A stretch of 64,000 bases of DNA from Burkholderiales bacterium. GTDB lineage: Bacteria; Pseudomonadota; Gammaproteobacteria; Burkholderiales; SG8-41. The stretch spans positions 46,850 through 110,849 of the forward strand of contig CAXNMF010000012.1 in the NCBI GenBank assembly GCA_964203275.1, read 5' to 3'. Numbering within the stretch: the stretch's first letter is position 1; each line of letters opens with the position of its first letter. Under the pieces are notes generated by a model that worked only from the letters and a program-made list of their open reading frames with translations, was not told where the DNA came from and searched no databases. The position numbers and the translations under genes are program-made. Shown one piece after another: positions 33,862 through 64,000 of the stretch.

Positions 33862-36800
33862 CTAGCCCATCGCGCCCCATAACTTGTCTAGGCGTTTGTA
33901 AGACACCGGATACGGCGTCTTCAGTTCCTGTGCATACAGTGACACGCGCAACTCCTCGATCTGCCAGCGGAATTCCAGCAGGCGCGGATCAACCAGTCCG
34001 GCTTTTTTCTGCTGGTCGAGACGCATTTCAAAACGCCCCCACAGCTGGGCGATGCTCGCCGCGTGTTTGCCGTCGCGCTCGGCATTGGCCGGATATTTGG
34101 CGAGGCGCATCTGCATCGCCTTGATGTAACGCGGCAGGTGGGTCAGCTGCGACCATGGCGTAGCGCTGAAAAAGCCCTTGTGGATCAGGCGCTGGCTTTG
34201 CGCGCGGATGTCATTGGCGGCTCTGGCGACATTGCCCTTGGCCGCACCCAGTGCCAGCGAGAGCTGGTGCACATCGGCGGCAATCGTCACAAACAGGCGG
34301 CAGGCTGCTTCAGACACCGCCGGAAGCCGCGTGCGCGCGCGTTTGACCTGGTCTTCAAACGCCTTTAATCCGCGCGGCAGTTCATCATCACCGATGAAGG
34401 CGCGGTCGCAGATCGCCGTGATCAGATCGGCGCGCAGGTCATCAGGACTGGCGATGGTGCGCAACTGCAGTGCCGCCTGATCGAAGCCCTTCAGATTTTT
34501 TCGAGCTGGCGCATCTGCTCCTTCAGCATCAGCCGCATCAGGCGCACGATGCCGGCGCGCATCGATTCCTGCGCGGCGCTTTCGACATCGAACAGGCGAA
34601 TGGCGACGCTGTCACCCTCGTCCGCGAGTGCGGGATAACCCGTCACCTGGCGGCCGCCACGGTTGAAGGTAATCGTCGGCGGCAGGTCGCCGAAATCCCA
34701 GACCTTGATGCCTTCGCGCTCGATGCCGGTATTGGTATCACTGAAAGTCAGCTGCGCAGCCTCACCCGAGTTGCGCTTTGAGCACCGCCAGATCGCGCCC
34801 CATGGCCAGTTCGCGTCCCGATTCATCCACCACCCGGTAGTTGCAGCGCAGGTGCGGCGGGAATTCGATGGCCGCCGCTTCATCACGCGCCAGCGGCGCG
34901 CCGGACGCGCGCGAGGCATAACGCACCACGGCGTCGGCGAAGCTGCCGTGGGCCGTGCCTTCGGTCTGCAGGAATTTGGTGATGTGCTCGGTCGGCGGCG
35001 TCAGATGGCGGCGCCAGTTTTTCGGCAGTGCCTTGAAGGCGAAGGCCACCTTGTCGCGAATCATCCCCGGCACCAGCCAGTCGAAAGCCGCGGCATCGAG
35101 CTTGTTGAGCAACGCCAGCGGCACGGTCGCGGTGATGCCGTCGAGCGGATGGCCGGGATCAAAACGGTATTTGAGTTTGACCTCGAACTCACCCGCTTTT
35201 TCCCCGACCAGGACGCTGTCGGGGAACTGCGCTTCGGTGATGTCTTCAGCAGCATGGCGCATCAGGTACTCGCGCGTCAGCAGCAGGTGGTCCGCGTTGT
35301 TCTGCTCGACCGTCTTGCGCCACTGCTCAAAGCCCGCGCCGTTGACGATGTCCTGCGCGATCCGTTCATCGTAGAACGCGAAGATCACCTCGTCGCTGAC
35401 CAGCACATCGCGTTTGCGCGCCTTGTGCTCCAGCTCCTGCACTTCTTTTATAAGCCTTTGATTTTGTTGTATAAATTTTGCGGGCGTGGCGTAGTCGCCG
35501 GCGACCAGCCCCTGGCGGATGAAAATCTCGCGGGCTTCCTTCGGATTGATCGGCCCGTAATGCACGCGGCGCTTGGGCACGATGGTGATGCCATACAGCG
35601 TGACGCGTTCATAGGCGGTGACCATCGCACGTTCACGCTCCCAGTGCGGATCAAAGTAATGACGGTCCACCAAATCACGCGCCAGCGGCTCGATCCATTC
35701 CGGTTCGATACGCGCAACGCAGCGTGCATAAAGCCGCGCGGTATCCACCAGTTCACCGGCCATCACCCATTTCGGCGCATTTGTATTTTTTTCTTTGCGC
35801 AGGCCCGAACCCGGGAAAATCGTGAACTTGATGCCGCGCGCGCCGAGATATTCGCCCTCTTCGTTCTTGAAACCGATATTGCCAAGCAGACCGGCGAGCA
35901 AGGCACGGTGGATCTGGTCCTCGGTGGCCGGCTTTTCATTGACCTGCAAACCGAGTTCAGCGGTCAGCGAAGCCAACTGGCCATGGATGTCGCGCCATTC
36001 ACGCATCCGCCGCTGCGACAGGAACAATTCCGCCAGCTGCTGCGCCAGCTTGCGGTTGGACTGCTTGTGTTTGATCGACTCGTCGAAAAAATCCCAGAGC
36101 TTCAGATAACTCATGAAGTCGGATTTGGCGTCGGCGAATTGCGCATGCGCACGGTCGGCGGCCTCTGACTTGTCGAAAGGCCGGTCGCGCGGGTCCTGCA
36201 CCGACAGCGCGGAGGCGATGATCAGCACTTCGCGCAGGCAGCCTTCCTGTTTTGCGGCGATGATCATGCGTGCAATGCGCGGATCAATCGGAAATTTGGC
36301 GAGCTGCCAGCCGACGGGGGTGAGCTGTTTCTGCGCATCGACCGCACCGAGCTCGGCCAGCAGTTGATAACCGTCGGTGATCATCCGCGGGGTCGGCGCC
36401 TCAAGAAAGGGAAAATCCTCGACATCGCCGATGCGCAGCGCCTTCATGCGCAGGATCACATGCGCCAGCGAAGAGCGCAGGATTTCCGGATCGGTGTACT
36501 GCGGCCGCGCGTTGTAATCGTCCTCGTCATAGAGACGGATCGCCACGCCGGCGGCGACGCGTCCGCAACGTCCGGCACGCTGGTTGGCCGAGGCGCGCGA
36601 CACCTTCTCGATCTGCAGCTGTTCGACCTTGTTGCGGTAGCTGTAGCGGTTGACCCGCGCCAGCCCGGTATCCACCACGTAATGAATGCCCGGCACCGTC
36701 AGCGAGGTTTCGGCGACGTTGGTGGCGAGAACGATGCGCCGTGCACCATGCGCACGGAACACTTCATCCTGCTCTTCAAAGGAAAGACGTGCATACAGGG

Positions 36801-37629
36801 GCAGAATTTCCGCGCCCTTCGGATGATTTTTGCGCAGGGCCTCGGCCGTCTCGCGGATTTCACGCTCGCCGGGCAGGAACACCAGCACGTCGCCGCCCGA
36901 CCGTTCGCGCCACAACTCGGAAACGGCATCGACAATCGCTTCGTCGAGATCCTTTTCTTCCTGCTTTTCGTTTTTCGCCAGCGGGTGATAACGCACTTCC
37001 ACCGGATAGGTGCGGCCCGACACTTCGATCACCGGCGCCGGTTTGCCGTTGATCGCGAAATGCTGCGCGAAGCGGTCCGCATCGATGGTGGCCGAGGTGA
37101 CGATGATTTTCAGGTCGGGACGGCGCGGCATCAGCCGGCGCAGGTAACCGAGCAGGAAGTCGATGTTCAGGCTGCGCTCATGCGCCTCGTCGATGATCAG
37201 CGTGTCGTAGGCGCGCAGGTCGCGGTCACCCTGGGTTTCGGCGAGCAGGATGCCGTCGGTCATCAGCTTGATATAGGTGTTCTGCGACAGCTTGTCGGCA
37301 AAACGCACCTTGTAACCGACGGCATGGCCCAGCGGGCTTTTCAGCTCATGAGCGATACGCGTCGCAACAGTACGCGCAGCAATGCGCCGTGGCTGGGTGT
37401 GGCCGATCAGGCCATGCACACCGCGCTGCAGTTCGAGACAGATCTTCGGCAGCTGTGTGGTCTTGCCCGATCCGGTTTCGCCGCAGACGATGACCACCTG
37501 GTTGTCGGCAATTGCGCGCGCGATGACCTCGCGTTTTCCGACCACCGGCAGGTCTTCCGGATAGGTCGGCTGCGGCAGGTTGCGCAGCCGGTGTTCGATG
37601 TCTTCGGGGGTACGGGGCTTCAAAGTCAA
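33862..37629 (-). pseudogene. hrpA: ATP-dependent RNA helicase HrpA, interrupted by two frameshifts (or assembly indels)
   Basis: DEAH helicase motifs GETGSGKTT and DEAHERS, plus HA2/OB and the HrpA C-terminal region. The reading frame breaks at a G-run (complement of CCC 34765-34767, one extra base) and at an A-run (complement of T6 34496-34501, one base short). Total length of 3768 nt is a multiple of 3. Confidence 0.85.
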
Positions 37630-51382: not shown

Positions 51383-51522
51383 TTTGTGCTTATTTAATAA
51401 ATATTTACACTATTTTATGCTTATTTATTGTCTAAAAACAAGAACATACAGAACCCTGTTCCGCGCGATCCCGCGTAGCATCCGGGGTCATGCGCGCACG
51501 CCCGCGCGCGGAGAAAAACACC

Positions 51523-54219
51523 ATGACCGATTTATCCGCTCATTTGCCCGATTTGGCCGCCGCATTCTGGCGCGTGATGCCCGCCGACCCCGATCCGGTG
51601 GAGACGCGCGAATGGCTCGACGCATTCAATTCACTGATCGAATCCAATGGCCGTGAGCGCGCCACCTATCTGCTGCGCAAATTGCTCGACGAAGCGCGGG
51701 CGAAACGCGTGCCGATGCCGCCGGTACTGAACACGCCCTACAGCAACTCCATCGCCCTGGCCGAGCAGCCGCAGTTTCCCGGCAACCTCGACATCGAGGC
51801 ACGCATTTCCGCGCTGGTGCGCTGGAACGCGCTGGCGATGGTGGTCCGCGCCAACCGCGGCGCCGCGGAGCTCGGAGGCCACATCGCGACCTACGCTTCG
51901 ATCGCCGACCTGTTCGAAGTCGGCTTCAATCATTTTTTCCGCGCCGGCCAAAATGGCGATGCAGTGTTTTTTCAGCCGCATGCCTCGCCCGGCATCTATG
52001 CCCGCGCTTGGATGGAAGGTCGCCTGAACGAAGACCAGCTCAATAATTACCGTCGTGAAACTGGCGGCCGAGGTACCGGCCTGTCCTCGTACTGCCACCC
52101 CTATCTGATGCCCGATTTCTGGCAGTTCCCCAACGCCTCGATGGGCCTGGGTCCGGTCAATGCGATCTATCAGGCGCGTTTCATGCGCTATTTGGAGCAC
52201 CGCGGCATCCAGAAAACCGCCGGGCGCAAGGTCTGGGCCTTTATCGGCGACGGTGAGATGGACGAACCGGAGTCGCTGGCCGGCCTGTCGCTGGCGGCAC
52301 GCGAAGGTCTCGACAACCTGATCTTTGTCGTCAACTGCAATCTGCAGCGCCTGGACGGCCCGGTGCGCGGCAACGGCTCGCTGATCCAGGAACTCGAAGG
52401 CCTGTTCTCGGGTGCGGGCTGGCATGTAGTGAAACTTTTGTGGGGTTCCGAATGGGATCCGCTGTTCGCGCGTGACACCGAGAACGTGATCCTCAAACGT
52501 CTGCATGAAACTGTTGATGGCGAATTCCAGAAATACGCCGCGACCGACGGCCGTTTCAATCGCGAACAGTTTTTCAACAAGGACCCGGACCTGCAGGCAC
52601 TGGTTTCGCACCTTTCGGATGAAGACATCGACCGCCTTCGTCGCGGCGGCCATGACCCGGTGAAAATTCACGCCGCCTATCACGCCGCAATGAACCATCA
52701 CGGCCGGCCGACGGTGATCCTCGCCCAGACCAAAAAAGGCTACGGCATGGGCCATTGGGGCCAGGGCAAGATGGGCGCGCACCAGCAGAAAAAAATGGAA
52801 GACGACGCGCTGCTCGCCTTCCGCGACCGTTTCTCGTTGCCGATTCCCGACGCCGATGTCAAAGCATTGAAATTCTGGAAGCCCGCCGACGACAGCCCGG
52901 AGATGCGTTACATGCACGCACGCCGCAATGCACTGGGCGGTTATCTGCCGGCGCGCGTCACCACTGCGCCGAAAATCACCGTACCCGTACCGGAAACCTA
53001 TGCGCGGATCAGCGAAGGCTCTGGCGGACGCGAAGAATCGACGACGATGAGCTTCGTCAAGATGCTCGCGCAGATGCTCAAGGATCCTGCGATCGGCAAA
53101 CAGATCGTGCCCATCGTGGCCGACGAAGCGCGCACCTTCGGCATGCAGTCGCTGTTCCGCCAGGTCGCGATTTACTCACCCTTCGGCCAGCTCTATGAAC
53201 CGGAAGATCGCGACGAGCTGCTCTATTACAAGGAAGCGCAGGACGGACAGATTCTGGAGGAAGGCATCAACGAAGCGGGCGCGATGTGCGTCGTGGATTG
53301 CAGCCGCAACCAGCTACAGCGTGCACGGCACACCGATGCTGCCCGTTCTATATCTTCTACTCGATGTTCGGATTCCAGCGGGTCGGCGACCTGATCTGGC
53401 AGGCGGGCGACTGCCGGTCGCGCGGCTTCCTGATCGGCGCCACCGCCGGCCGCACCACGCTATCGGGCGAAGGCCTGCAGCACCAGGACGGTTCATCCCA
53501 CCTGATCGCATCGACCGTGCCCAACTGCCGGGCATGGGACCCCGCCTACGGTTATGAACTCGCGACCATCATCCAGGACGGCACTGCAGCGCATGCTCGA
53601 AGCGCAGGAGGACGTCATCTATTACATCACAGTGATGAATGAAAACTACGCCCAGCCGGCAATGCCGGAAGGCGCGCGCGACGGCATCCTCAAAGGCATG
53701 TATCTGTTGCATTGGAAACCGGATGCTGCCGTGCAGTTGCTCGGCAGCGGCACCATCCTGCGCGAAGCCATCGCTGCCGCAGAATTGCTGCACAAGGACT
53801 TCGGCATCGAAAGCAACGTCTGGAGCGTGACCAGCTGGAGTGAATTGCGCCGCGACGGCATGGCCTGCGAACGTCATAACCGCCTGAATCCGGCGTCGTC
53901 CCCGCGGACAAGCCATGTTGCCGAATCGCTGGCAGCGCATCAGGGACCGGTCATTGCGGCATCGGATCACGTCACTGCAGTGGCTGATTTGGTCCGTGCA
54001 TATGTGCCGGGTCGTTATGTCGCTCTCGGCACTGACGGTTACGGCCGCAGCGATTCACGGGAAAATCTGCGACGCTTTTTTGAAATGGACCGCCACCACA
54101 TCGTGGTTGCCGCACTGGCGGCACTGGCGGATGAAGGCACCATTGCCAGAGAACGTGTCGTGCAAGCCATCCAGCGCTACGGAATCATTGCCACCGATAC
54201 CGCGCCCTGGGAAAACTGA
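51523..54219 (+). pseudogene. aceE: pyruvate dehydrogenase E1 component, homodimeric type, interrupted by three +1 frame changes (or assembly indels)
   Basis: Start at ATG 51523 (MTDLSAHLPD...DPVETREWLDAF). ThDP motif GDGEMDEPES. The conserved sequence moves from frame 1 to 2 near 53288-53292 ([18 protein letters not shown]), from 2 to 0 at CCC 53342-53344 ([15 protein letters not shown]...[13 protein letters not shown]), and from 0 back to 1 near 53583 ([22 protein letters not shown]...). No E2 or E3 genes follow. Confidence 0.85.
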
Positions 54220-56300: not shown

Positions 56301-59300
56301 ATGTCCCGTTTTTTCATAGACCGCCCGATCTTCGCGGTAGTGGTATCGATTTTCATCGTGCTGGCCGGCCTCGCTGCGATGCGTGTGCTGCCGATCGCGC
56401 AATACCCGGAAATCGCGCCTCCGGTGGTCACCGTCCGCGCCGTCTATCCCGGTGCGTCAGCCCAGGTCATCGAGCAGACCGTCGCCGCGCCACTGGAAAA
56501 CCAGATCACCGGCGTCGAGCACATGCTCTACATGAGTTCGAACTCGACTTCGAACGGCGTACTCGAAATCCAGGTCACTTTCGACATCGGCACCGACATC
56601 GACACCGCGGCGCTCAACGTCAACAACCGCGTCAAACAGGCCGAACCGCGCCTGCCGCTGGAAGTCCGGCGTCAGGGCGTCAGCGTCGAAAAAGGTTCTT
56701 CATCGTTCCTGCAGGTCATCGCGTTCAGCTCCCCCGACGGCAGCCGCGACGACCTGTTCATCTCGAACTACGTCACCTTGAATGTGCTTGATGCGCTGAA
56801 ACGCGTACCGGGCACCACCAATGTACAGATCTTCGGCGCCAAGGACTATGCGATGCGCATCTGGACGCGTCCGGACCGCCTCGCACAGCTGAAGCTGACA
56901 CCTGGCGACCTGACGCGCGCACTCAATGAGCAGAACGCACAGTTTGCCGCCGGCAAAATCGGCCAGTCACCGACCGGCGGTCCCCAGGAACTGGTTTACA
57001 CCATCACCACCAAGGGACGGCTGTCGGAACCCGCCGAGTTCGAAAACGTCGTCATCCGCGCCAATCCGGATGGCTCACTGCTGCGTCTGAAAGATGTGGC
57101 GCGCGTGGAGTTGGGCTCCAAGGATTACGACTTTATCGGCCGCGTCAACGGCAAATCAGCGACCCTGGTAGGCATTTTCCTGCAACCCAATGCCAATGCG
57201 CTGGCCACCGCAGATCGTGTAAAAGCGGCCATGGCACCGCTCGCCGAGGCCTACCCGCCGGGATTCACCCATAACGTGGTGTACGACACGACTCGATTCG
57301 TCGAGGTATCGATCCGCGAGGTGATCTACACGCTGCTGGAAGCAATGGCGCTGGTGTTCCTGGTCGTGTTCCTGTTCCTGCAGAACTGGCGTGCCACGCT
57401 GATTCCCTTCGCCGCCGTTCCGGTATCGCTGATCGGCACCTTTGCCGGCCTGCTGCTGCTCGGTTATTCGATCAACACACTGACATTGTTCGGCATGGTG
57501 CTGGCCATCGGCATTGTCGTTGACGATGCCATTGTCGTGCTCGAAAACGTCGAACGCATCATGCACGAGGAACATCTGCAGGCGCGAGAAGCCGCGGTCA
57601 AGGCAATGAAGGAAGTCACCAGCCCGATCATCGCCATCGTGCTGACACTGTGCGCGGTATTCGTGCCGATCGCCTTCCTCGGCGGACTGACCGGCGAACT
57701 CTACCGGCAATTCGCAGTGACCATTTCCATTGCGGTGGTGATCTCCGGCATCGTCGCCCTGACACTGACACCTTCGCTGTGCGTGCTGATTCTCAAACGC
57801 CAGCACGGCACACCGGGCCGTTTCTTCACCTGGTTCAACAACTGGTTCGCGCGCATGACCGGCCGTTATGTTGACGGTGTCACCTGGATGCTGCGACGCG
57901 GCTTAATCGCCCTGCTGCTGTTTGTCGGCATGGTCGCACTGACCTTCGGCCTGTGGCGTGCCACGCCGGGCTCGCTGGTCCCCGATGAAGACCAGGGCTA
58001 TTACATCGCCGCAGTGTTCCTGCCCGACGGCGCAACCCTGGAACGCACCGACAAGGTCGTCAATGAAGTGGTCGAGATCATCAAATCAAATCCGGCCAAT
58101 GAAACCGCGATCGCCTTCACCGGCCTTGATTTCCTTGGCGGCGGTTTCCGCAACAGCGCGGCGACGATTTTCGTGACTCAAAAACATTGGGACGAACGTA
58201 CCGTATCGACCGGACAGCTTGTCGGCGAATTCTTCATGAAAACCGGGCATATCAAGGAAGGCCTCGCGCTGGCTTTCGGTCCGCCACCGATTTTCGGCCT
58301 CGGCAACGCCGGCGGCTTCGAGTTTTACATCCAGAACCGCGGCGAAGGCGGTGCACAGAAACTCTCCGAAGCCACGCAGCAACTGCTCGCCGCGGTGCAG
58401 AAGGATCCGATGTTTGGCCAGGTCAACACGCTGTGGCGCGCCAATGTGCCGCAACTTTATGTTGAAACAGATCGCGAGAAAGCCAAGACGCTGGGCGTGC
58501 CGATCGACGAGGTTTACGGCGCACTAGCCGCCACCCTGGGCACCGCCTACGTCAACGATTTCAACAAATTCGGCCGCACCTGGCAGGTGCTCATGTCCGC
58601 CGAACCGGCCTACCGCAAACGTCCGGACGACGTTGGCGCGATCTATGTACGTTCGGATCGCGGCGCAATGATTCCGCTATCGTCGCTGGCCAAGGTCAAC
58701 TACTCCTCCGGCCCGGACTCACTCGACCGCTTCAACAACCTGCCGGCGGTGAAGATTTTCGGCTCGGCCAAACCCGGATACAGCTCGGGTGAGGCGATTG
58801 CCGGCATGGAACGCATCGCCAAGGAGACGCTGCCGCCCGACTTCACCTTCGACTGGGGCGGCGCATCCTTCCAGGAAAAACGCTCCGGCGGCACCTCGAT
58901 CATTGCACTGGGACTTGCGGCTTTGATGGTATTCCTGATTCTCGCCGCGCAATACAACCGCTGGTCGCTGCCGCTGGCCGTCATGCTGGCACTGCCCTTC
59001 GGCACTTTCGGCGCGCTGCTGGCGATTTTCATCAACAACCTGCTGCCGATGCCGTTTTATCTGGCGCAGGGTATTCCCTGGCTGCAAGGACTGCTGTCAC
59101 CGCTGTCGCACATTGCACGGCTGAGTAACGACGTATATTTCCAGATCGGCCTGGTCACGCTGCTCGGCCTTGCCGCAAAAAACGCAATTCTGATCGTTGA
59201 ATTCGCGGTGATGAAAAAACAGGAAGGGCTGTCCACGGCGGGTGCCGCGATTGAAGCCGCGCGACTGCGCTTCCGCCCGATTCTGATGACGTCACTGGCT

Positions 59301-59582
59301 TTCATCCTCGGCGTGGTGCCACTGGTGATTTCCAGCGGCGCCGGTGCCGGCGCCCGCCACTCCGCAGGTACTGGTGTGATGGGCGGCATGCTGGCAGCCA
59401 CCTTCCTCGCGATCTTTTTCATTCCGTGGTTCTACAAACTGATCATCGAACGCAAACTTTCGGATCCGCGCTCGACCAAGGAAATCGAAGATGAAGTCGC
59501 CCATCACCGCGAATTGATGCTGCGTTCGGTGCAGACACCGCATCACACCCCCGTCGGCAAGGGAGATGATGATGCGAAATAG
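56301..59582 (+). CDS. RND multidrug efflux pump, inner-membrane component (HAE1, AcrB/MexB-like)
   Basis: 1093 aa. [62 protein letters not shown]. Confidence 0.95.
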   Translation: [1093 protein letters not shown]

Positions 59583-61026
59583 GTATATGATTTTATTCGC
59601 ATTTTCTTCGACCCTCAGCGCCTGCACCATGGCGCCCGACTACCAACGCCCCGAAGCTGAACTGCCGCAGACCTGGCAGGCAGCACCGGCGCAGGGACAG
59701 AACCTGCCGGCGGATCGCTGGTGGACGCTGTATCAGGACGGCACGCTAAACCTCCTCGTCGAAGAGGCGCTGATCTACAACCAGGATCTGGCACTGGCGA
59801 CCGCACGACTGGATGAAGCCCGCGCACTGGCGCGCGTCGCTGATGCGCAACTGGCTCCCGCCGTTGATGCCGCGTTCCAGCGTGATCGCACACGCCGCTC
59901 GGACAGCACCGCGACACGATTCCCCGGCGCACTGGAAAACAATAACTACCGCGCACAGGTCAATGTTTCCTACGAAATCGATCTGTGGGGAAAACTGCGC
60001 GAATCCGCCAAAGCCGCGCAGGCCGAACTGCTCGCCACGACGGCTGCACGCGAAACCGTACGCATCGCCCTGACTGCCGGCGTTGTGCAGTCCTACTACG
60101 CCCTGATCTCGCTGGATTCACAGGTCGATGCAACACGCCGGTCGCTGACGCTCCGCCAGAACGACCTCAAGCTGCAACGTGTCCGTGCAGACGCCGGCAT
60201 CATCAATGACTTTTCATTGCGTCAACTGGAAGCCGAAGTGTCTGCAGCCCAGGCACAGTTGCCGGCACTGGAAAGCCGCCGCACCAGCGAGGAACTCGCA
60301 CTGGGCGTGCTGCTCGGACGCAGCCCGCGCGCACTGCTGCAGGATCGTGTGCTGCGCAATGCCGGCAATGCCGCGCCAGCAACACCCGTGATTCCGGCGG
60401 ACCTGCCTTCGGAACTGCTGCTGCGACGCCCTGACATCGTCACCGCGGAACAACAGCTGATTGCCGCCAACGCCCGCATCGGCGCGGCACGCGCCTCACT
60501 GTTCCCTAGCATCGGTTTGAGCGGCTATCTCGGCAGTGAAAGTGCTGCGCTGTCGAACCTGTTTTCAGGTCCCGCCGGCATTTGGCAGCTGGGCTTCGGG
60601 CTTGCGCAGCCGATTTTCCAGGGCGGCCGTCTCTTCGGCGAAATCGAGGCGGTGGAAGCCCGTCAGCGCCAGGCGCTGGCGCAATACCAGAAGACGCTGC
60701 AAACCGCGTTCCGTGAAACCCACGACGCATTGGTCGGCCAGGTGCGCGCGCGCGAAGCTTTCGATGCGGAAAATGCACGGGTGATTGCGCTGACCGAAGC
60801 ACTGCGGCTGTCGCGCATCCGATTTGTCAACGGACTGACCAGTCAACTGGAAGTGCTGGACGCCGAACGCAATCTGCTCAATGCCGAACTGAACCGCGCC
60901 GACGCACTGCGTGCCCAGCGCTCCGCAGTGGCCAATGTGGTGAAAGCGCTGGGCGGCGGCTGGACCGGCCTGCCGGGTGCAGAAACCGCACCGGCACAGG
61001 CGCAATCCGCCCCGGCGACGCCATGA
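59566..61026 (+). CDS. outer-membrane efflux lipoprotein (NodT/OprM family)
   Basis: 486 aa with lipobox LSAC followed by TMAPDYQRP and two OEP repeats. It overlaps the pump gene end; three consecutive ATGs at 59566-59574. Confidence 0.9.
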   Translation: MMMRNRYMILFAFSSTLSACTMAPDYQRPEAELPQTWQAAPAQGQNLPADRWWTLYQDGTLNLLVEEALIYNQDLALATARLDEARALARVADAQLAPAVDAAFQRDRTRRSDSTATRFPGALENNNYRAQVNVSYEIDLWGKLRESAKAAQAELLATTAARETVRIALTAGVVQSYYALISLDSQVDATRRSLTLRQNDLKLQRVRADAGIINDFSLRQLEAEVSAAQAQLPALESRRTSEELALGVLLGRSPRALLQDRVLRNAGNAAPATPVIPADLPSELLLRRPDIVTAEQQLIAANARIGAARASLFPSIGLSGYLGSESAALSNLFSGPAGIWQLGFGLAQPIFQGGRLFGEIEAVEARQRQALAQYQKTLQTAFRETHDALVGQVRAREAFDAENARVIALTEALRLSRIRFVNGLTSQLEVLDAERNLLNAELNRADALRAQRSAVANVVKALGGGWTGLPGAETAPAQAQSAPATP

Positions 61027-61138
61027 ACTGCTGCGGCACCAGCCCAAGGCCCTTGATCAGCTTGCCGTAAACATCCGGCCTGATGGATGGACTGCAAGGC
61101 GCAGAAAACAAAAAGCCGCGTAAAGTTCACGCGCAAAT

Positions 61139-61816: not shown

Positions 61817-63436
61817 TCAGACAATTTCACTACCCGTCTCGTCCGAAGCATTGACGGCGATCCAGTGCGTGACAAGCGGCGAATCTTCACCCCGGTGAAA
61901 AGCGCGCACACGCGCGAACAGCGGCGCGTCATCGGCGGTTCCACGATGATGCTGCCGCATGTGTTCCGCCCACGATTCCACGACGAAGGTCTCGACATAA
62001 CGACCCGGCACATCCGGGTCCTCAAACAGTCCCCAGGATAATGCCCCGTCACGCCGGCGTATCCGCTCCATGCCCTGAGCCGCAGCGATAAACGCATCGG
62101 CATCGTCGAGCGCAATCCGGTATTCAACATGCACTGCGACCGGCCCGCGTTCCGGCGCGATATCGTCATGTCCGGGTGCGCGCATCAGTACAGCCGGTGC
62201 GCTGCGCGCCAGCCCATCCTCGCCCCCCAGCGTCAAACGCCAGGTGAAGAACATGGCAAGCAACGCGCCAGCCGATGCCGACAACAACGCCGGGGGCACA
62301 CCCCAGCGCGTCGCCAGCGCGCCCCACAATACCGCGCCACCGGTCATCCCCGCGGCATAAACCATCAGATAGACGGAGAGCGCACGCGCCCGCACCCACT
62401 GCGGAACCGCGGTCTGGGCACTGACATGCAACGTCGACAACAGCGCGAGCCACGCCGCACCGCAGGCGAACACCGCCGGAAACAAAATAAACAGCGTTTT
62501 GGCCCAAGCAACACCAACCGTACCCGTCACATAAACAACAGTTGCAACCCGCACCAGCACATCACGGCTGCAGCGCCTCCGCAAATAAGGCATCACAAGC
62601 GCTACAGAAACTGCACCCACACCAATTCCTGCGAGCAACAGACCATAGGTATCCGCACCGCCCCCCGTATCGCGCGCAACCAGCGGCAACAGCGCCCAGG
62701 TTGCCGATGAAAAGACAAAAAACGCCGCGGCCCGCCCCATGACATGTTGCAGCGCCGTGGCCTCGCGGACATAACGCACACCGGCACGCAAGGCGCCGGA
62801 AAAACGCTCCGCCGGCAGCGTGCTCGGCACAGGTGCCCGCGGCCAGCGCGCCAGAACGACAATGACACCGATGAAAGATACCGCATTGAGGATGAACGCC
62901 GCCTGTGGTCCGGAAGCGGCAACAACAACGCCCGCCAGCGCCGGACCGACGGCACGCGCCAGATTGATGCCGAGACTGTTCAGCGCAATTGCCGCCTGCA
63001 ATTCGCCACGCGGCACAAGCTCGTGCACAGTTGCCGCCCATGCCGGCGTATTCAATGCCGCTCCGCAGGCCAACGCAAACGTGAACGCGAGCAATCCCCA
63101 GGCATTGACCCAGCCCAGCGCCGTCGTTACCGCCAGCGCCAGCACCACCAGCAGCATCCAGGCCTGCGTGTAGATCAGGTAGCGGCGCCGGTCAATAATG
63201 TCGGCCAGCGCGCCGCCGGGCAGCGCCAGCAGAAAAATCGGCAGGGCGGTGGCCGCCTGCACCAGCGACACCATTAGCGGGTTCGGATTCAGCGTGACCA
63301 TCAGCCAGCCGGCACCGACCTCGTGCACCCAGGTACCGATGTTCGACACCAGCGTGGCAATCCACAACGCGCGGAACAGCGGCTGGCGCAGCGGCGCCCA
63401 CGCAGAAGGTGGTGCTTCAGGTTGCTTTTCGGTCAT
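61817..63436 (-). CDS. MFS transporter (MFS_3/EntS-like) with a ~130 aa soluble C-terminal extension
   Basis: 539 aa. N-terminal FRALWIATLVSNIGTWVHEVGAGWLM and 12 predicted TM spans. The hydrophilic tail HVEYRIALDDADAFIAAAQGMERIRRRDGALSWGLFED looks like a Dabb/ABM-like fold. Confidence 0.85.
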   Translation of the reverse strand: MTEKQPEAPPSAWAPLRQPLFRALWIATLVSNIGTWVHEVGAGWLMVTLNPNPLMVSLVQAATALPIFLLALPGGALADIIDRRRYLIYTQAWMLLVVLALAVTTALGWVNAWGLLAFTFALACGAALNTPAWAATVHELVPRGELQAAIALNSLGINLARAVGPALAGVVVAASGPQAAFILNAVSFIGVIVVLARWPRAPVPSTLPAERFSGALRAGVRYVREATALQHVMGRAAAFFVFSSATWALLPLVARDTGGGADTYGLLLAGIGVGAVSVALVMPYLRRRCSRDVLVRVATVVYVTGTVGVAWAKTLFILFPAVFACGAAWLALLSTLHVSAQTAVPQWVRARALSVYLMVYAAGMTGGAVLWGALATRWGVPPALLSASAGALLAMFFTWRLTLGGEDGLARSAPAVLMRAPGHDDIAPERGPVAVHVEYRIALDDADAFIAAAQGMERIRRRDGALSWGLFEDPDVPGRYVETFVVESWAEHMRQHHRGTADDAPLFARVRAFHRGEDSPLVTHWIAVNASDETGSEIV

Positions 63437-63540
63437 GGGCAGGCATCACGGTAAGCGCGATCATAACCGAGCATGCGCCCGCAAGACTCAGCGCCGCTCT
63501 CTCCGCGAATTGCCCGTCGCAAAACTTCAGGTAAACAGCA

Positions 63541-64000
63541 TCAGGACTTTTCAGCCATCGCAGCAGCAAGCTCCCCCTGCTTCGCGGACAGGGTTTTCAG
63601 CCAGCGTTGCCCGCCGAATGTAAATCCGATCCAGTAACCAAGCTCAACCAGCTCCGGCTCGGTGAATTCCGCGCGTAACGAAGCCCACATCGCATCATCG
63701 GCCTGATTGGGGTCATACATGATGGCATCCGCGTAACGCAATGCGATTTTCTCTCGCGGGGTGAATTTGGCGGACTTTTCGTACTGCATCAATTCCGCCA
63801 TCTTGCTGTTGGCATCCCGCGCGGACCGCGCGGTTCCCTGATTACTTCAATAACCGCATTCGATGGTGAACGCGACGTAAGCGCGCAGCGTCTCCTTCAA
63901 GTCGTGCTCGACAACACCAGCGCCGTTGTCAAACAGCATTTCGCGTGTCAGTGTAAATGAACGCATCACATCCGGTTGATGCGCGCGAATCGCCTGGTTC
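63541..64000 (-). CDS. carboxymuconolactone decarboxylase (CMD)/AhpD-like protein, 5' end off window, with an in-frame TGA at the CxxC position (candidate selenocysteine, or a nonsense mutation)
   Basis: One frame is continuous from 63999 to the stop at 63541 apart from TGA at 63849-63847: ...LKETLRAYVAFTIECGY[TGA]SNQGTARSARDANSKMAELMQYEKSAKFTPREKIALRYADAIMYDP...ELVELGYWIG. CMD-family similarity is present on both sides of the TGA. Confidence 0.75.
63817..63833 (-). other. candidate bacterial SECIS-like hairpin
   Basis: In mRNA sense this is CCGCGC-GGUCC-GCGCGG (6 GC pairs, loop starting GGU). The loop begins 19 nt 3' of the in-frame UGA. Confidence 0.35.

What the first reader, a model, noticed from the sequence alone, without database searches (positions are those of the whole stretch)
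63541..64000. AhpD/CMD-like gene with UGA replacing the second Cys of CxxC, followed by a GGU-loop hairpin: candidate selenoprotein
The minus-strand frame is open from the window edge to 63541 except for one TGA (63849-63847). That TGA falls in ...AFTIECGY-TGA-S..., where CMD/AhpD-family proteins carry the redox motif C-x-x-C, so it would read C-G-Y-U. Family-like sequence continues after the TGA (FTPREKIALRYADAIMYDP...ELVELGYWIG). The two halves therefore look like one gene, not two.

Nineteen nt downstream of the UGA, the mRNA can form CCGCGC-GGUCC-GCGCGG. The spacing and the GGU apical loop resemble the E. coli fdhF-type bacterial SECIS as I recall it. AhpD-like selenoproteins with CxxU have been predicted computationally in other bacteria.

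There are three caveats. This window has many other gene lesions, and TGC/TGT to TGA is a single substitution. The stem is short. The usual His four residues after the motif is Gly here.
Basis: partly seen in the sequence, partly recalled or inferred. Interest (0 to 1): 0.7.

Follow-up and report, generated by a model that had tools for sequence, protein, structure and literature searches.

The report
AhpD-like selenoprotein gene with SECIS
The "broken" gene at the window edge is almost certainly intact: its internal TGA very likely encodes selenocysteine in the redox site of an AhpD-like enzyme and is followed by a conserved RNA hairpin, which makes it a real but unsurprising new member of a known selenoprotein family that public annotation cuts in two.

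Summary
The minus-strand frame 63541-63999 has one in-frame TGA (63849-63847), at the second Cys of an invariant C-x-Y-C-[SA]-N-Q-G motif of about 190-aa AhpD/CMD-fold proteins.

The selenoprotein reading is strongly supported.
- All 58 species-level Burkholderiales/Betaproteobacteria MAG orthologues (74-97% aa identity) carry TGA at this codon and no other stop. All 21 Actinomycetota homologues carry TGC or TGT.
- Substitution patterns are the same upstream and downstream of the TGA (63% synonymous on each side).
- The hairpin CCGCGC-GGUCC-GCGCGG (63833-63817) is kept only in the TGA clade. It shows compensatory changes on both arms (0 of 500 shuffles reach the observed value) and frozen four-fold sites.
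- The published bacterial SECIS model is met in 58 of 59 TGA sequences and 1 of 21 Cys homologues.
- The GGUC loop lies 22 nt from the U of UGA; in E. coli fdhF it lies at 21 nt.
- At least four independent metagenome assemblies show the same TGA.

Not shown: selA, selB, selC and selD could not be looked for in the source genome.

AhpD-like CxxU selenoproteins have been known since 2005, so this is a new member of a known kind. No curated model covers this subfamily, and public records split the gene into two "hypothetical" ORFs. Interest is moderate (0.38).

The parts
63541..64000 (-). AhpD/CMD-fold selenoprotein gene, codons 34-185 plus stop. The 5' 33 codons and the start lie beyond the window edge and are known from the identical contig L001:5453-6010.
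   Evidence: Homologues of about 196 aa align at 58-65% identity over 97-99% of the read-through product. AF2 model pLDDT 77.7, all-helical; Foldseek probability 1.0 and TM 0.67 to P. aeruginosa AhpD 7xw1.
63847..63849 (-). In-frame TGA, read as selenocysteine (codon 84). It occupies the second position of the redox motif, giving C-G-Y-U.
   Evidence: It aligns to the near-invariant second Cys. TGA in 58 of 58 betaproteobacterial orthologues and TGC/TGT in 21 of 21 actinobacterial homologues. Same TGA in independent assemblies.
63856..63858 (-). TGC codon of the first Cys of the C-x-x-U motif (resolving Cys by analogy with AhpD).
   Evidence: Invariant C48 in alignment A1; columns 1-3 of A3.
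63817..63833 (-). SECIS-like hairpin inside the coding sequence: 5' arm CCGCGC (63833-63828), loop GGUCC (63827-63823), 3' arm GCGCGG (63822-63817). It encodes (T)AR-S-AR.
   Evidence: 97.3% of cells paired. Three pairs change on both sides (8 cells); 0 of 500 shuffles reach this. RNAalifold predicts the same helix. Four-fold sites in the stem have 0-0.13 bit entropy against a mean of 1.26 elsewhere. The bSECIS model is met in 58 of 59 TGA sequences against 1 of 21 Cys homologues. Hairpin alone -11.9 kcal/mol.
63541..63543 (-). Genuine TGA stop codon of the gene, which shows that TGA is a normal stop in this genome.
61817..63436 (-). Downstream neighbour on the same strand: an MFS_3/MFS_1 transporter of 539 aa. 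This is context only; it is not conserved next to the gene in most relatives.
   Evidence: Adjacent in only 2 of 43 loci that hold enough flank.

Best explanation
This is one intact gene of 185 codons for an AhpD/CMD-fold thiol-selenol oxidoreductase. Its active-site motif is E-x11-C-G-Y-U, and the U (selenocysteine) is encoded by the TGA at 63849-63847.

Proposed mechanism (inferred). During translation the hairpin 13-29 nt after the UGA presents a GGUC(C) apical loop 19-20 nt after the codon. SelB·GTP·Sec-tRNA(Sec) binds this loop and delivers Sec to the UGA in the A site, so the ribosome continues into S-N-Q-G-T-A-R... instead of terminating. The selenolate at the second motif position acts as the attacking nucleophile on a peroxide, a sulfenic acid or disulfide, or another electrophilic substrate. 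The Cys three residues upstream resolves it to a selenenylsulfide, as the second and first Cys do in M. tuberculosis AhpD (from memory of the AhpD literature).

Shown here:
- the gene is a single unit;
- the TGA sits at the redox Cys;
- the TGA is conserved across the clade;
- both halves are under purifying selection;
- the hairpin is conserved, covaries and matches the SECIS model;
- the predicted fold is AhpD-like.

Inferred, not shown: SelB-dependent Sec insertion, the catalytic roles of the two residues, and the substrate.
For: - Homologues of about 196 aa span 97-99% of the read-through product at 58-65% identity, so the two halves are one gene.
- The TGA falls on the second Cys of an invariant C-x-Y-C-[SA]-N-Q-G. 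E36 lies 11 residues before the first Cys and is invariant.
- Of 79 related genomic loci, all 58 betaproteobacterial ones (74-97% identity) have TGA and all 21 actinobacterial ones (51-62%) have TGC or TGT.
- In 59 TGA sequences the TGA is the only in-frame stop. The synonymous fraction of codon differences is 0.63 upstream, 0.58 in the 15 codons after the TGA and 0.63 further downstream, with third-position changes dominating throughout.
- Hairpin: 97.3% of cells paired, 3 pairs with changes on both sides, 0 of 500 shuffles as high, and slid controls at 18-68% paired.
- Compensatory changes cost amino-acid replacements: ACC>ACT with CGG>CAG (R>Q), ACC>ACA with CGG>CTG (R>L), and GCG>GCA with GCG>GTG (A>V).
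- Four-fold third positions in the stem are frozen.
- The published bSECIS model (PMC13188914, Fig. 2) is met at the same place in 58 of 59 TGA sequences and in 1 of 21 Cys homologues.
- The GGUC loop starts 22 nt from the U of UGA; in E. coli fdhF it starts at 21 nt.
- The identical TGA occurs in at least four independently assembled samples, and the same 83-aa product ending at that stop is called in two more.
- AhpD fold.
- AhpD-like CxxU selenoproteins are an established family (PMC1088965, PMC2398784, PMC9312934), and the Sec-decoding trait is common in Betaproteobacteria (PMC1794560).
Against: - No selA, selB, selD, fdhA or tRNA-Sec was found in the 1.17 Mb held (the window plus all loci). 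These are small parts of the genomes, so the machinery remains unverified.
- The hairpin alone is not significant in a single sequence (z = -1.46).
- It is a perfect 6-7 bp stem. It lacks the bulged U that I recall as important in the E. coli fdhF element.
- No Rfam family matches.
- The protein is below the curated cut-offs of Pfam CMD (17.1 against 23), TIGR01926 (30.5 against 81.8) and NF053654 (51.8 against 310).
- There is no experimental evidence of Se incorporation.
Confidence: 0.9

Rival explanations
1. Pseudogene: a single TGC/TGT to TGA nonsense substitution in a genome with other decayed genes. On this reading the hairpin is a chance GC-rich palindrome.
For: - TGY to TGA is one substitution.
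- aceE and hrpA in the same window carry frameshifts.
- The hairpin is not significant in a single sequence.
Against: - The TGA is fixed in 58 of 58 species-level orthologues that have diverged to 74% identity.
- There is no second stop or frameshift in any of them, and purifying selection is equal on both sides of the TGA.
- The hairpin covaries.
- The other lesions in the window are indels, a different kind of event.
Confidence: 0.02
2. A genuinely split gene. Translation stops at the TGA and an independent 82-93 aa polypeptide starts at the conserved ATG 16 codons later. The hairpin would serve translational coupling or mRNA stability.
For: - The Met codon at +16 is conserved in the TGA clade (Leu in the Cys clade).
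- Gene callers produce two ORFs in hundreds of assemblies.
Against: - The 15 codons between the TGA and the ATG encode the family's most conserved motif, S-N-Q-G-[TS]-A-R, and evolve mostly by synonymous change (0.58).
- No conserved Shine-Dalgarno sequence precedes the ATG (by inspection).
- Called starts of the 3' ORF vary (82-93 aa).
- A split would remove the second redox residue altogether.
Confidence: 0.03
3. SelB-independent recoding: the UGA is read through as Cys or Trp by a near-cognate tRNA, with the hairpin stimulating read-through, in organisms without the Sec machinery.
For: The Sec machinery was not seen in any sequence held here.
Against: - The hairpin's loop sequence and its distance from the UGA are those of SelB-dependent elements.
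- G33 in the loop is an invariant four-fold site, and U34 is kept in at least 90% of sequences. Both point to sequence-specific recognition.
- There is no precedent for a clade-wide fixed read-through at a catalytic Cys when TGC is one step away.
- The Sec trait is common in Betaproteobacteria (PMC1794560).
Confidence: 0.03
4. Sequencing or assembly error at 63847-63849.
For: The window shows indel-type lesions elsewhere.
Against: The same TGA and hairpin are present in L001, L084, L085 and L086, which come from different samples and assemblers, and in 58 other genomes.
Confidence: 0.005

Closest known systems
AhpD-like selenoproteins (COG2128/YciW type; 'AhpD-like 1' of the GOS survey; TIGR01926 in recent reviews), CxxU motif
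   Same: - CMD/AhpD fold.
- Sec replaces the second Cys of CxxC (CxxU).
- The SECIS lies immediately downstream within the coding sequence.
- Cys-containing homologues are abundant.
- JGI names the fragments and the Cys homologues 'alkylhydroperoxidase family enzyme' (PMC1088965, PMC2398784, PMC9312934, PMC13188914).
   Different: - It scores only 30.5 bits against TIGR01926 (cut-off 81.8).
- It has a distinct C-x-Y-U-S-N-Q-G signature with no His at +4.
- The hosts are uncultured Burkholderiales from freshwater, soil and groundwater rather than marine plankton.
- Public records do not annotate it as a selenoprotein.
NF053654 'GroundWater_YciW' YciW-related (seleno)protein
   Same: It is the best NCBIfam hit, aligned end to end (residues 1-160 to profile positions 1-159 of 179). 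It belongs to the same superfamily, and the family includes Sec forms.
   Different: 51.8 bits against an equivalog cut-off of 310, so it is a different subfamily.
E. coli fdhF SECIS (SelB-binding hairpin)
   Same: The apical loop contains GGUC. It starts 21 nt (fdhF) or 22 nt (here) from the U of UGA. Both lie inside the coding sequence.
   Different: Here the stem is a perfect 6-7 bp G+C stem, with no bulged U and no long lower helix reaching back to the UGA. SelB binding is untested.
M. tuberculosis / P. aeruginosa AhpD and related CMD-family thiol enzymes (PDB 7xw1, 2ijc, 3c1l, 2gmy; Bmp8 debrominase 6ohi)
   Same: All-helical AhpD fold (TM 0.60-0.67, Foldseek probability 1.0). E-x11-C-x-x-C spacing. 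Bmp8 is the best PDB sequence match (E = 6.5e-7).
   Different: 13-22% identity. Sec replaces the second Cys. Gly replaces the proton-relay His. The physiological substrate and the reductant are unknown.

Membership tests
Bacterial selenoprotein gene (Sec-UGA plus bSECIS) | The in-frame UGA aligns with a conserved Cys in homologues (Sec/Cys pair) | tested here: met
   the TGA column is the second Cys of C-x-Y-C; 21 of 21 actinobacterial homologues have TGC or TGT.
Bacterial selenoprotein gene (Sec-UGA plus bSECIS) | The UGA is conserved in orthologues, with coding conservation on both sides | tested here: met
   58 of 58 orthologues carry TGA and no other stop; synonymous fraction 0.63 upstream and 0.63 downstream.
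Bacterial selenoprotein gene (Sec-UGA plus bSECIS) | A hairpin meeting the bSECIS consensus: loop 3-9 nt, stem 4-16 bp, G in the first two loop positions, 16-37 nt from the UGA, MFE <= -7.5 kcal/mol | tested here: met
   with criteria taken from PMC13188914: stem 6-7 bp, loop GGUCC or GUC, spacing 19-20 nt, -11.9 kcal/mol. Met in 58 of 59 TGA sequences and 1 of 21 Cys homologues.
Bacterial selenoprotein gene (Sec-UGA plus bSECIS) | Evolutionary support for the RNA structure (covariation) | tested here: met
   3 pairs with changes on both sides, 0 of 500 shuffles as high; four-fold sites in the stem are frozen.
Bacterial selenoprotein gene (Sec-UGA plus bSECIS) | selA, selB, selC (tRNA-Sec) and selD present in the same genome | not testable with these tools
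   None found in the window or in the 1.17 Mb of loci held, but these are small parts of the genomes.
Bacterial selenoprotein gene (Sec-UGA plus bSECIS) | Selenium actually incorporated at the UGA | not testable with these tools
   Needs 75Se labelling or mass spectrometry.
AhpD/CMD superfamily (Pfam PF02627) | Score at or above the Pfam gathering threshold | tested here: not met
   17.1 bits against 23 for the 152-aa window product, although the match covers profile positions 1-83 of 84. Several Cys homologues carry a precomputed PF02627 hit.
AhpD/CMD superfamily (Pfam PF02627) | All-helical AhpD fold | tested here: met
   pLDDT 77.7; the top 36 PDB matches are all AhpD/CMD proteins, with TM up to 0.67 and probability 0.98-1.0.
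AhpD/CMD superfamily (Pfam PF02627) | E-x11-C-x-x-C-x3-H signature (recalled from the AhpD literature) | tested here: inconclusive
   the Glu, the 11-residue spacing and the C-x-x-C/U are present and invariant. The His is replaced by an invariant Gly within N-Q-G.
TIGR01926 peroxidase-related enzyme (the 'AhpD-like protein' selenoprotein family of reviews) | Score at or above the curated cut-off (81.8 bits) | tested here: not met
   30.5 bits.
NF053654 YciW-related (seleno)protein | Score at or above the curated cut-off (310 bits) | tested here: not met
   51.8 bits.
E. coli fdhF-type SECIS | GGUC-containing apical loop about 21 nt from the UGA | tested here: met
   index 21 in fdhF, 22 here.
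E. coli fdhF-type SECIS | Bulged U in the upper stem (recalled from memory as needed for E. coli SelB) | tested here: not met
   the stem here is perfectly paired.
Rfam SECIS families | A covariance-model match | tested here: not met
   no SECIS family at E <= 10 in 63500-64000.

The most novel reading that the evidence does not exclude
The genomes of this Burkholderiales clade lack selA, selB and selC, and the conserved UGA-plus-hairpin is decoded by a SelB-independent recoding mechanism. My evidence does not exclude this only because the Sec machinery could not be examined.

A milder and far more likely novelty is that this is a clade-wide, Sec-fixed AhpD-like subfamily that nobody has annotated. 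Its SECIS was built inside the coding sequence by turning E-I-R into S-A-R, which makes it a second selenoprotein family in Betaproteobacteria beyond FdhA.
Probability: 0.03. Interest if true: 0.85.

Novelty: new member of a known kind. Interest (0 to 1): 0.38.

Why it matters
- **Annotation.** Gene callers split this gene into an 83-aa 'hypothetical protein' and an 82-93 aa 'alkylhydroperoxidase family enzyme' in more than 100 sequence clusters and at least 58 species-level genomes. No curated model captures it. A dedicated HMM with a Sec flag would repair all of these records.
- **Selenium use in Betaproteobacteria.** The 2006 survey found FdhA as their only selenoprotein. This gene would extend selenium use in uncultured freshwater, soil and groundwater Burkholderiales to a thiol-type redox enzyme.
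- **How a SECIS is built.** It is a clean example of a SECIS shaped inside coding sequence. The two stem arms encode Ala-Arg twice, and RNA pairing is kept even at the cost of amino-acid replacements.

It does not change the understanding of Sec decoding.

Tried and rejected
- tRNA scan of the window and 60 loci: no tRNA at all, so no selC.
- tblastn of E. coli SelA, SelB, SelD and FdhF against the window plus all loci (1.17 Mb): no hit for SelA, SelB or SelD; FdhF gave one hit, in the actinobacterial locus L069, and none in the window or the TGA-clade loci. The machinery remains untested.
- Rfam scan of 63500-64000 at E <= 10: only a chance snoRNA hit.
- Single-sequence folding: not significant. 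I dropped it as evidence.
- Gene-neighbourhood analysis. There is no conserved operon partner. A GntR/FCD regulator lies upstream on the same strand in 24 loci (immediately upstream in 12), and Bug/TctC-type binding-protein genes often flank the gene on the opposite strand. The MFS_3 neighbour is specific to this species group. No functional inference was drawn.
- tblastn against PLSDB plasmids, to find a cultured carrier: no match.
- Look-up of the truncated AceE product elsewhere: not on record.
- Pseudogene, split gene and sequencing error were considered and rejected (see rival explanations).

Full report
**1. The observation**

On the minus strand, window 63541-63999 translates to 153 codons. 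The only internal stop is TGA at 63849-63847, in the context ...AYVAFTIECGY*SNQGTARSARDANSKMAELMQ... The frame ends at its own TGA stop (63543-63541), so TGA is an ordinary stop in this genome.

- 5' arm CCGCGC, 63833-63828
- loop GGUCC, 63827-63823
- 3' arm GCGCGG, 63822-63817

The stem begins 13 nt after the UGA and the loop begins 19 nt after it.

The gene runs off the window edge. An identical 7.9-kb metagenome contig (L001, ERZ27280278) supplies the missing 33 codons, an ATG and a GGAGG ribosome-binding site. The full gene has 185 codons.

**2. One gene, and the TGA is at the redox Cys**

I replaced the stop with Cys and searched the protein collection. The product matches about 196-aa 'alkylhydroperoxidase family / CMD family' proteins at 58-65% identity over 97-99% of its length.

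In the alignment, the TGA column is the second Cys of an invariant C-x-Y-C-[SA]-N-Q-G. An invariant Glu lies 11 residues before the first Cys. The Gly where AhpD has His is a subfamily trait shared with the Cys homologues.

The fold is AhpD-like:
- The AlphaFold model is all-helical, with pLDDT 77.7.
- Its best PDB matches are all AhpD/CMD proteins: P. aeruginosa AhpD 7xw1, PA0269, mlr4105, Atu0492 and D. radiodurans AhpD, with TM 0.60-0.67.
- The best sequence-level PDB match is the thiol-dependent debrominase Bmp8 (E = 6.5e-7).

**3. Selenocysteine or lesion? The comparative test**

A scan of one genome per species returned 80 loci. I read the codon at the Cys column in 79 of them:

| Group | Loci | aa identity to query | Codon |
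|---|---|---|---|
| Burkholderiales/Betaproteobacteria MAGs | 58 | 74-97% | TGA in all |
| Actinomycetota (Acidimicrobiia, Nitriliruptoraceae, Gaiellaceae) | 21 | 51-62% | TGC or TGT in all |

In the 59 TGA sequences this TGA is the only in-frame stop, and the frame stays open for 184-202 codons.

Codon differences are synonymous in the same proportion on both sides of the TGA, and third-position changes dominate throughout:

| Region | Synonymous fraction |
|---|---|
| Upstream of the TGA | 0.63 |
| 15 codons between the TGA and the next ATG | 0.58 |
| Next 80 codons | 0.63 |

The sequence after the TGA is therefore translated in frame and is under the same purifying selection. This rules out a pseudogene. 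It also makes two independent polypeptides unlikely, because the intervening codons encode the family's most conserved motif.

The same TGA is seen in DNA from four separate samples, and the same 83-aa product is called in two more. This rules out a sequencing error.

**4. The hairpin**

In a single sequence the hairpin is unremarkable: -16.2 kcal/mol for 50 nt, z = -1.46. Across the 59 TGA sequences it is strongly supported.

- 97.3% of cells are paired over 7 pairs.
- Three pairs show changes on both sides. No shuffle out of 500 reaches the observed covariation, and slid controls fall to 18-68% paired.
- RNAalifold predicts the same helix independently.

The compensatory changes are informative. 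A synonymous change in the Thr codon (ACC to ACT or ACA) is matched by CGG to CAG or CTG in the 3' arm, at the cost of an Arg to Gln or Leu replacement. GCG to GCA is matched by GCG to GTG, an Ala to Val replacement.

Four-fold degenerate third positions inside the stem and loop (codons +6, +7, +9, +10) carry 0-0.13 bit of entropy. The mean at 51 other four-fold sites in the gene is 1.26 bit. This includes the loop G, which is free to vary for coding purposes but is invariant.

I applied the published bacterial SECIS model: loop 3-9 nt, stem 4-16 bp, G in the first two loop positions, 16-37 nt from the UGA, and MFE <= -7.5 kcal/mol (PMC13188914). A qualifying hairpin lies at the same position (spacing 19-20 nt) in 58 of 59 TGA sequences and in only 1 of 21 Cys homologues.

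I also read the E. coli fdhF element from NC_000913.3. Its GGUC loop starts 21 nt from the U of UGA; here GGUC starts at 22 nt. The stem here is perfect and lacks the bulged U I recall from fdhF. No Rfam model matches.

**5. What could not be shown**

The Sec machinery was not found in the sequence available. There is no tRNA in the window or in 60 loci. E. coli SelA, SelB and SelD have no tblastn hit in the 1.17 Mb held. FdhF has none in the window or the TGA-clade loci.

The test is therefore open, not negative. As background, the Sec-decoding trait is common in Betaproteobacteria (PMC1794560).

**6. Mechanism**

My best-supported reading has confidence of about 0.9. SelB with Sec-tRNA(Sec) binds the GGUC(C) loop and recodes the UGA, giving a 185-aa AhpD-fold enzyme with an E-x11-C-G-Y-U centre.

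By analogy with AhpD (from memory), the second motif residue is the attacking nucleophile and the first resolves it. Sec sits at the nucleophile position, as in all CxxU AhpD-like selenoproteins.

The two stem arms encode Ala-Arg twice: (T)AR-S-AR. The Cys homologues have (I/V)AR-(E/D)-I-R at these positions. The 3' arm therefore appears to have been created by remodelling two codons.

The substrate is unknown. The gene neighbourhood is not conserved: a GntR regulator lies upstream on the same strand in 24 loci, Bug/TctC genes flank the gene on the opposite strand, and the MFS_3 neighbour occurs only in the closest relatives.

**7. Comparison with what is known, and novelty**

AhpD-like (COG2128/YciW) and CMD-domain selenoproteins with CxxU were described from the Sargasso Sea in 2005. 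They are among the most abundant families in the GOS survey, with 299 and 70 sequences (PMC1088965, PMC2398784). Reviews list them under TIGR01926, PF02627, NF041047 and NF041238.

This protein works like those, but it is below every curated cut-off:
- TIGR01926: 30.5 against 81.8
- NF053654: 51.8 against 310
- Pfam CMD: 17.1 against 23

Public records split the gene into an 83-aa 'hypothetical protein' (cluster of 134 members) and an 82-93 aa fragment (cluster of 119 members). The 2006 survey listed FdhA as the only selenoprotein of Betaproteobacteria. I found no paper describing this clade.

My verdict is a new, unannotated subfamily and member of a well-known kind of selenoprotein.

**8. 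Verdict**

Interest is moderate (0.38). A specialist would expect such genes. The value lies in the very clean comparative evidence, in the annotation fix, and in the example of a SECIS evolving under a coding constraint.

Noticed in passing
window ~51490-54219 (+): The aceE (pyruvate dehydrogenase E1) homologue is frameshifted three times within about 300 nt. It goes from frame 1 to frame 2 near 53290, then to frame 3, then back to frame 1 near 53575. Otherwise it aligns to E. coli AceE residues 5-884 at 47% identity. The truncated 634-aa product is not on record in other assemblies. I did not resolve whether this is an assembly error or real decay.
   Followed up: partly
window 33889-37575 (-): The hrpA (RNA helicase) homologue changes from frame -2 to -3 at about 34767 and returns to -2 between 34497 and 34290. 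These are again indel-type lesions, not nonsense codons.
   Followed up: partly
window 56301-59582 (+): The AcrB-type efflux ORF (1093 aa) matches the ACR_tran profile only to position 912 of 1021. This suggests a further frameshift near its 3' end, where it overlaps the next ORF (59566-61026).
   Followed up: no
L002-L081 (record titles): The titles of the TGA-clade MAGs disagree. Most say Burkholderiales or Betaproteobacteria, but some say 'Bordetella parapertussis', 'Streptomycetaceae', 'Streptomyces sp.' or 'Chitinophaga pinensis'. These look like automatic names. The clade assignment rests on the majority of titles and on the Bug/TctC-rich context.
   Followed up: no
L002:13011-16891 vs window 61070-61097: The closest species-level relative has this gene at 97% aa identity and flanks at 83-87% nt identity. 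It carries about 3.9 kb of extra DNA between the MFS_3 gene and the efflux genes that the window lacks.
   Followed up: no
window 63799-63801 (-); column 58-60 of alignment A3: The Met codon 16 codons after the TGA is conserved in the TGA clade, whereas the Cys clade has Leu there. It might allow a 3' fragment to be made when selenium is scarce. No conserved Shine-Dalgarno sequence precedes it.
   Followed up: partly
L057-L076, L080 vs L002-L056: The nearest Cys-containing homologues of this betaproteobacterial Sec clade are all from Actinomycetota (51-62% identity). No betaproteobacterial Cys form appeared among the 80 loci. This hints at transfer between phyla followed by Cys to Sec conversion, or the reverse.
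   Followed up: no
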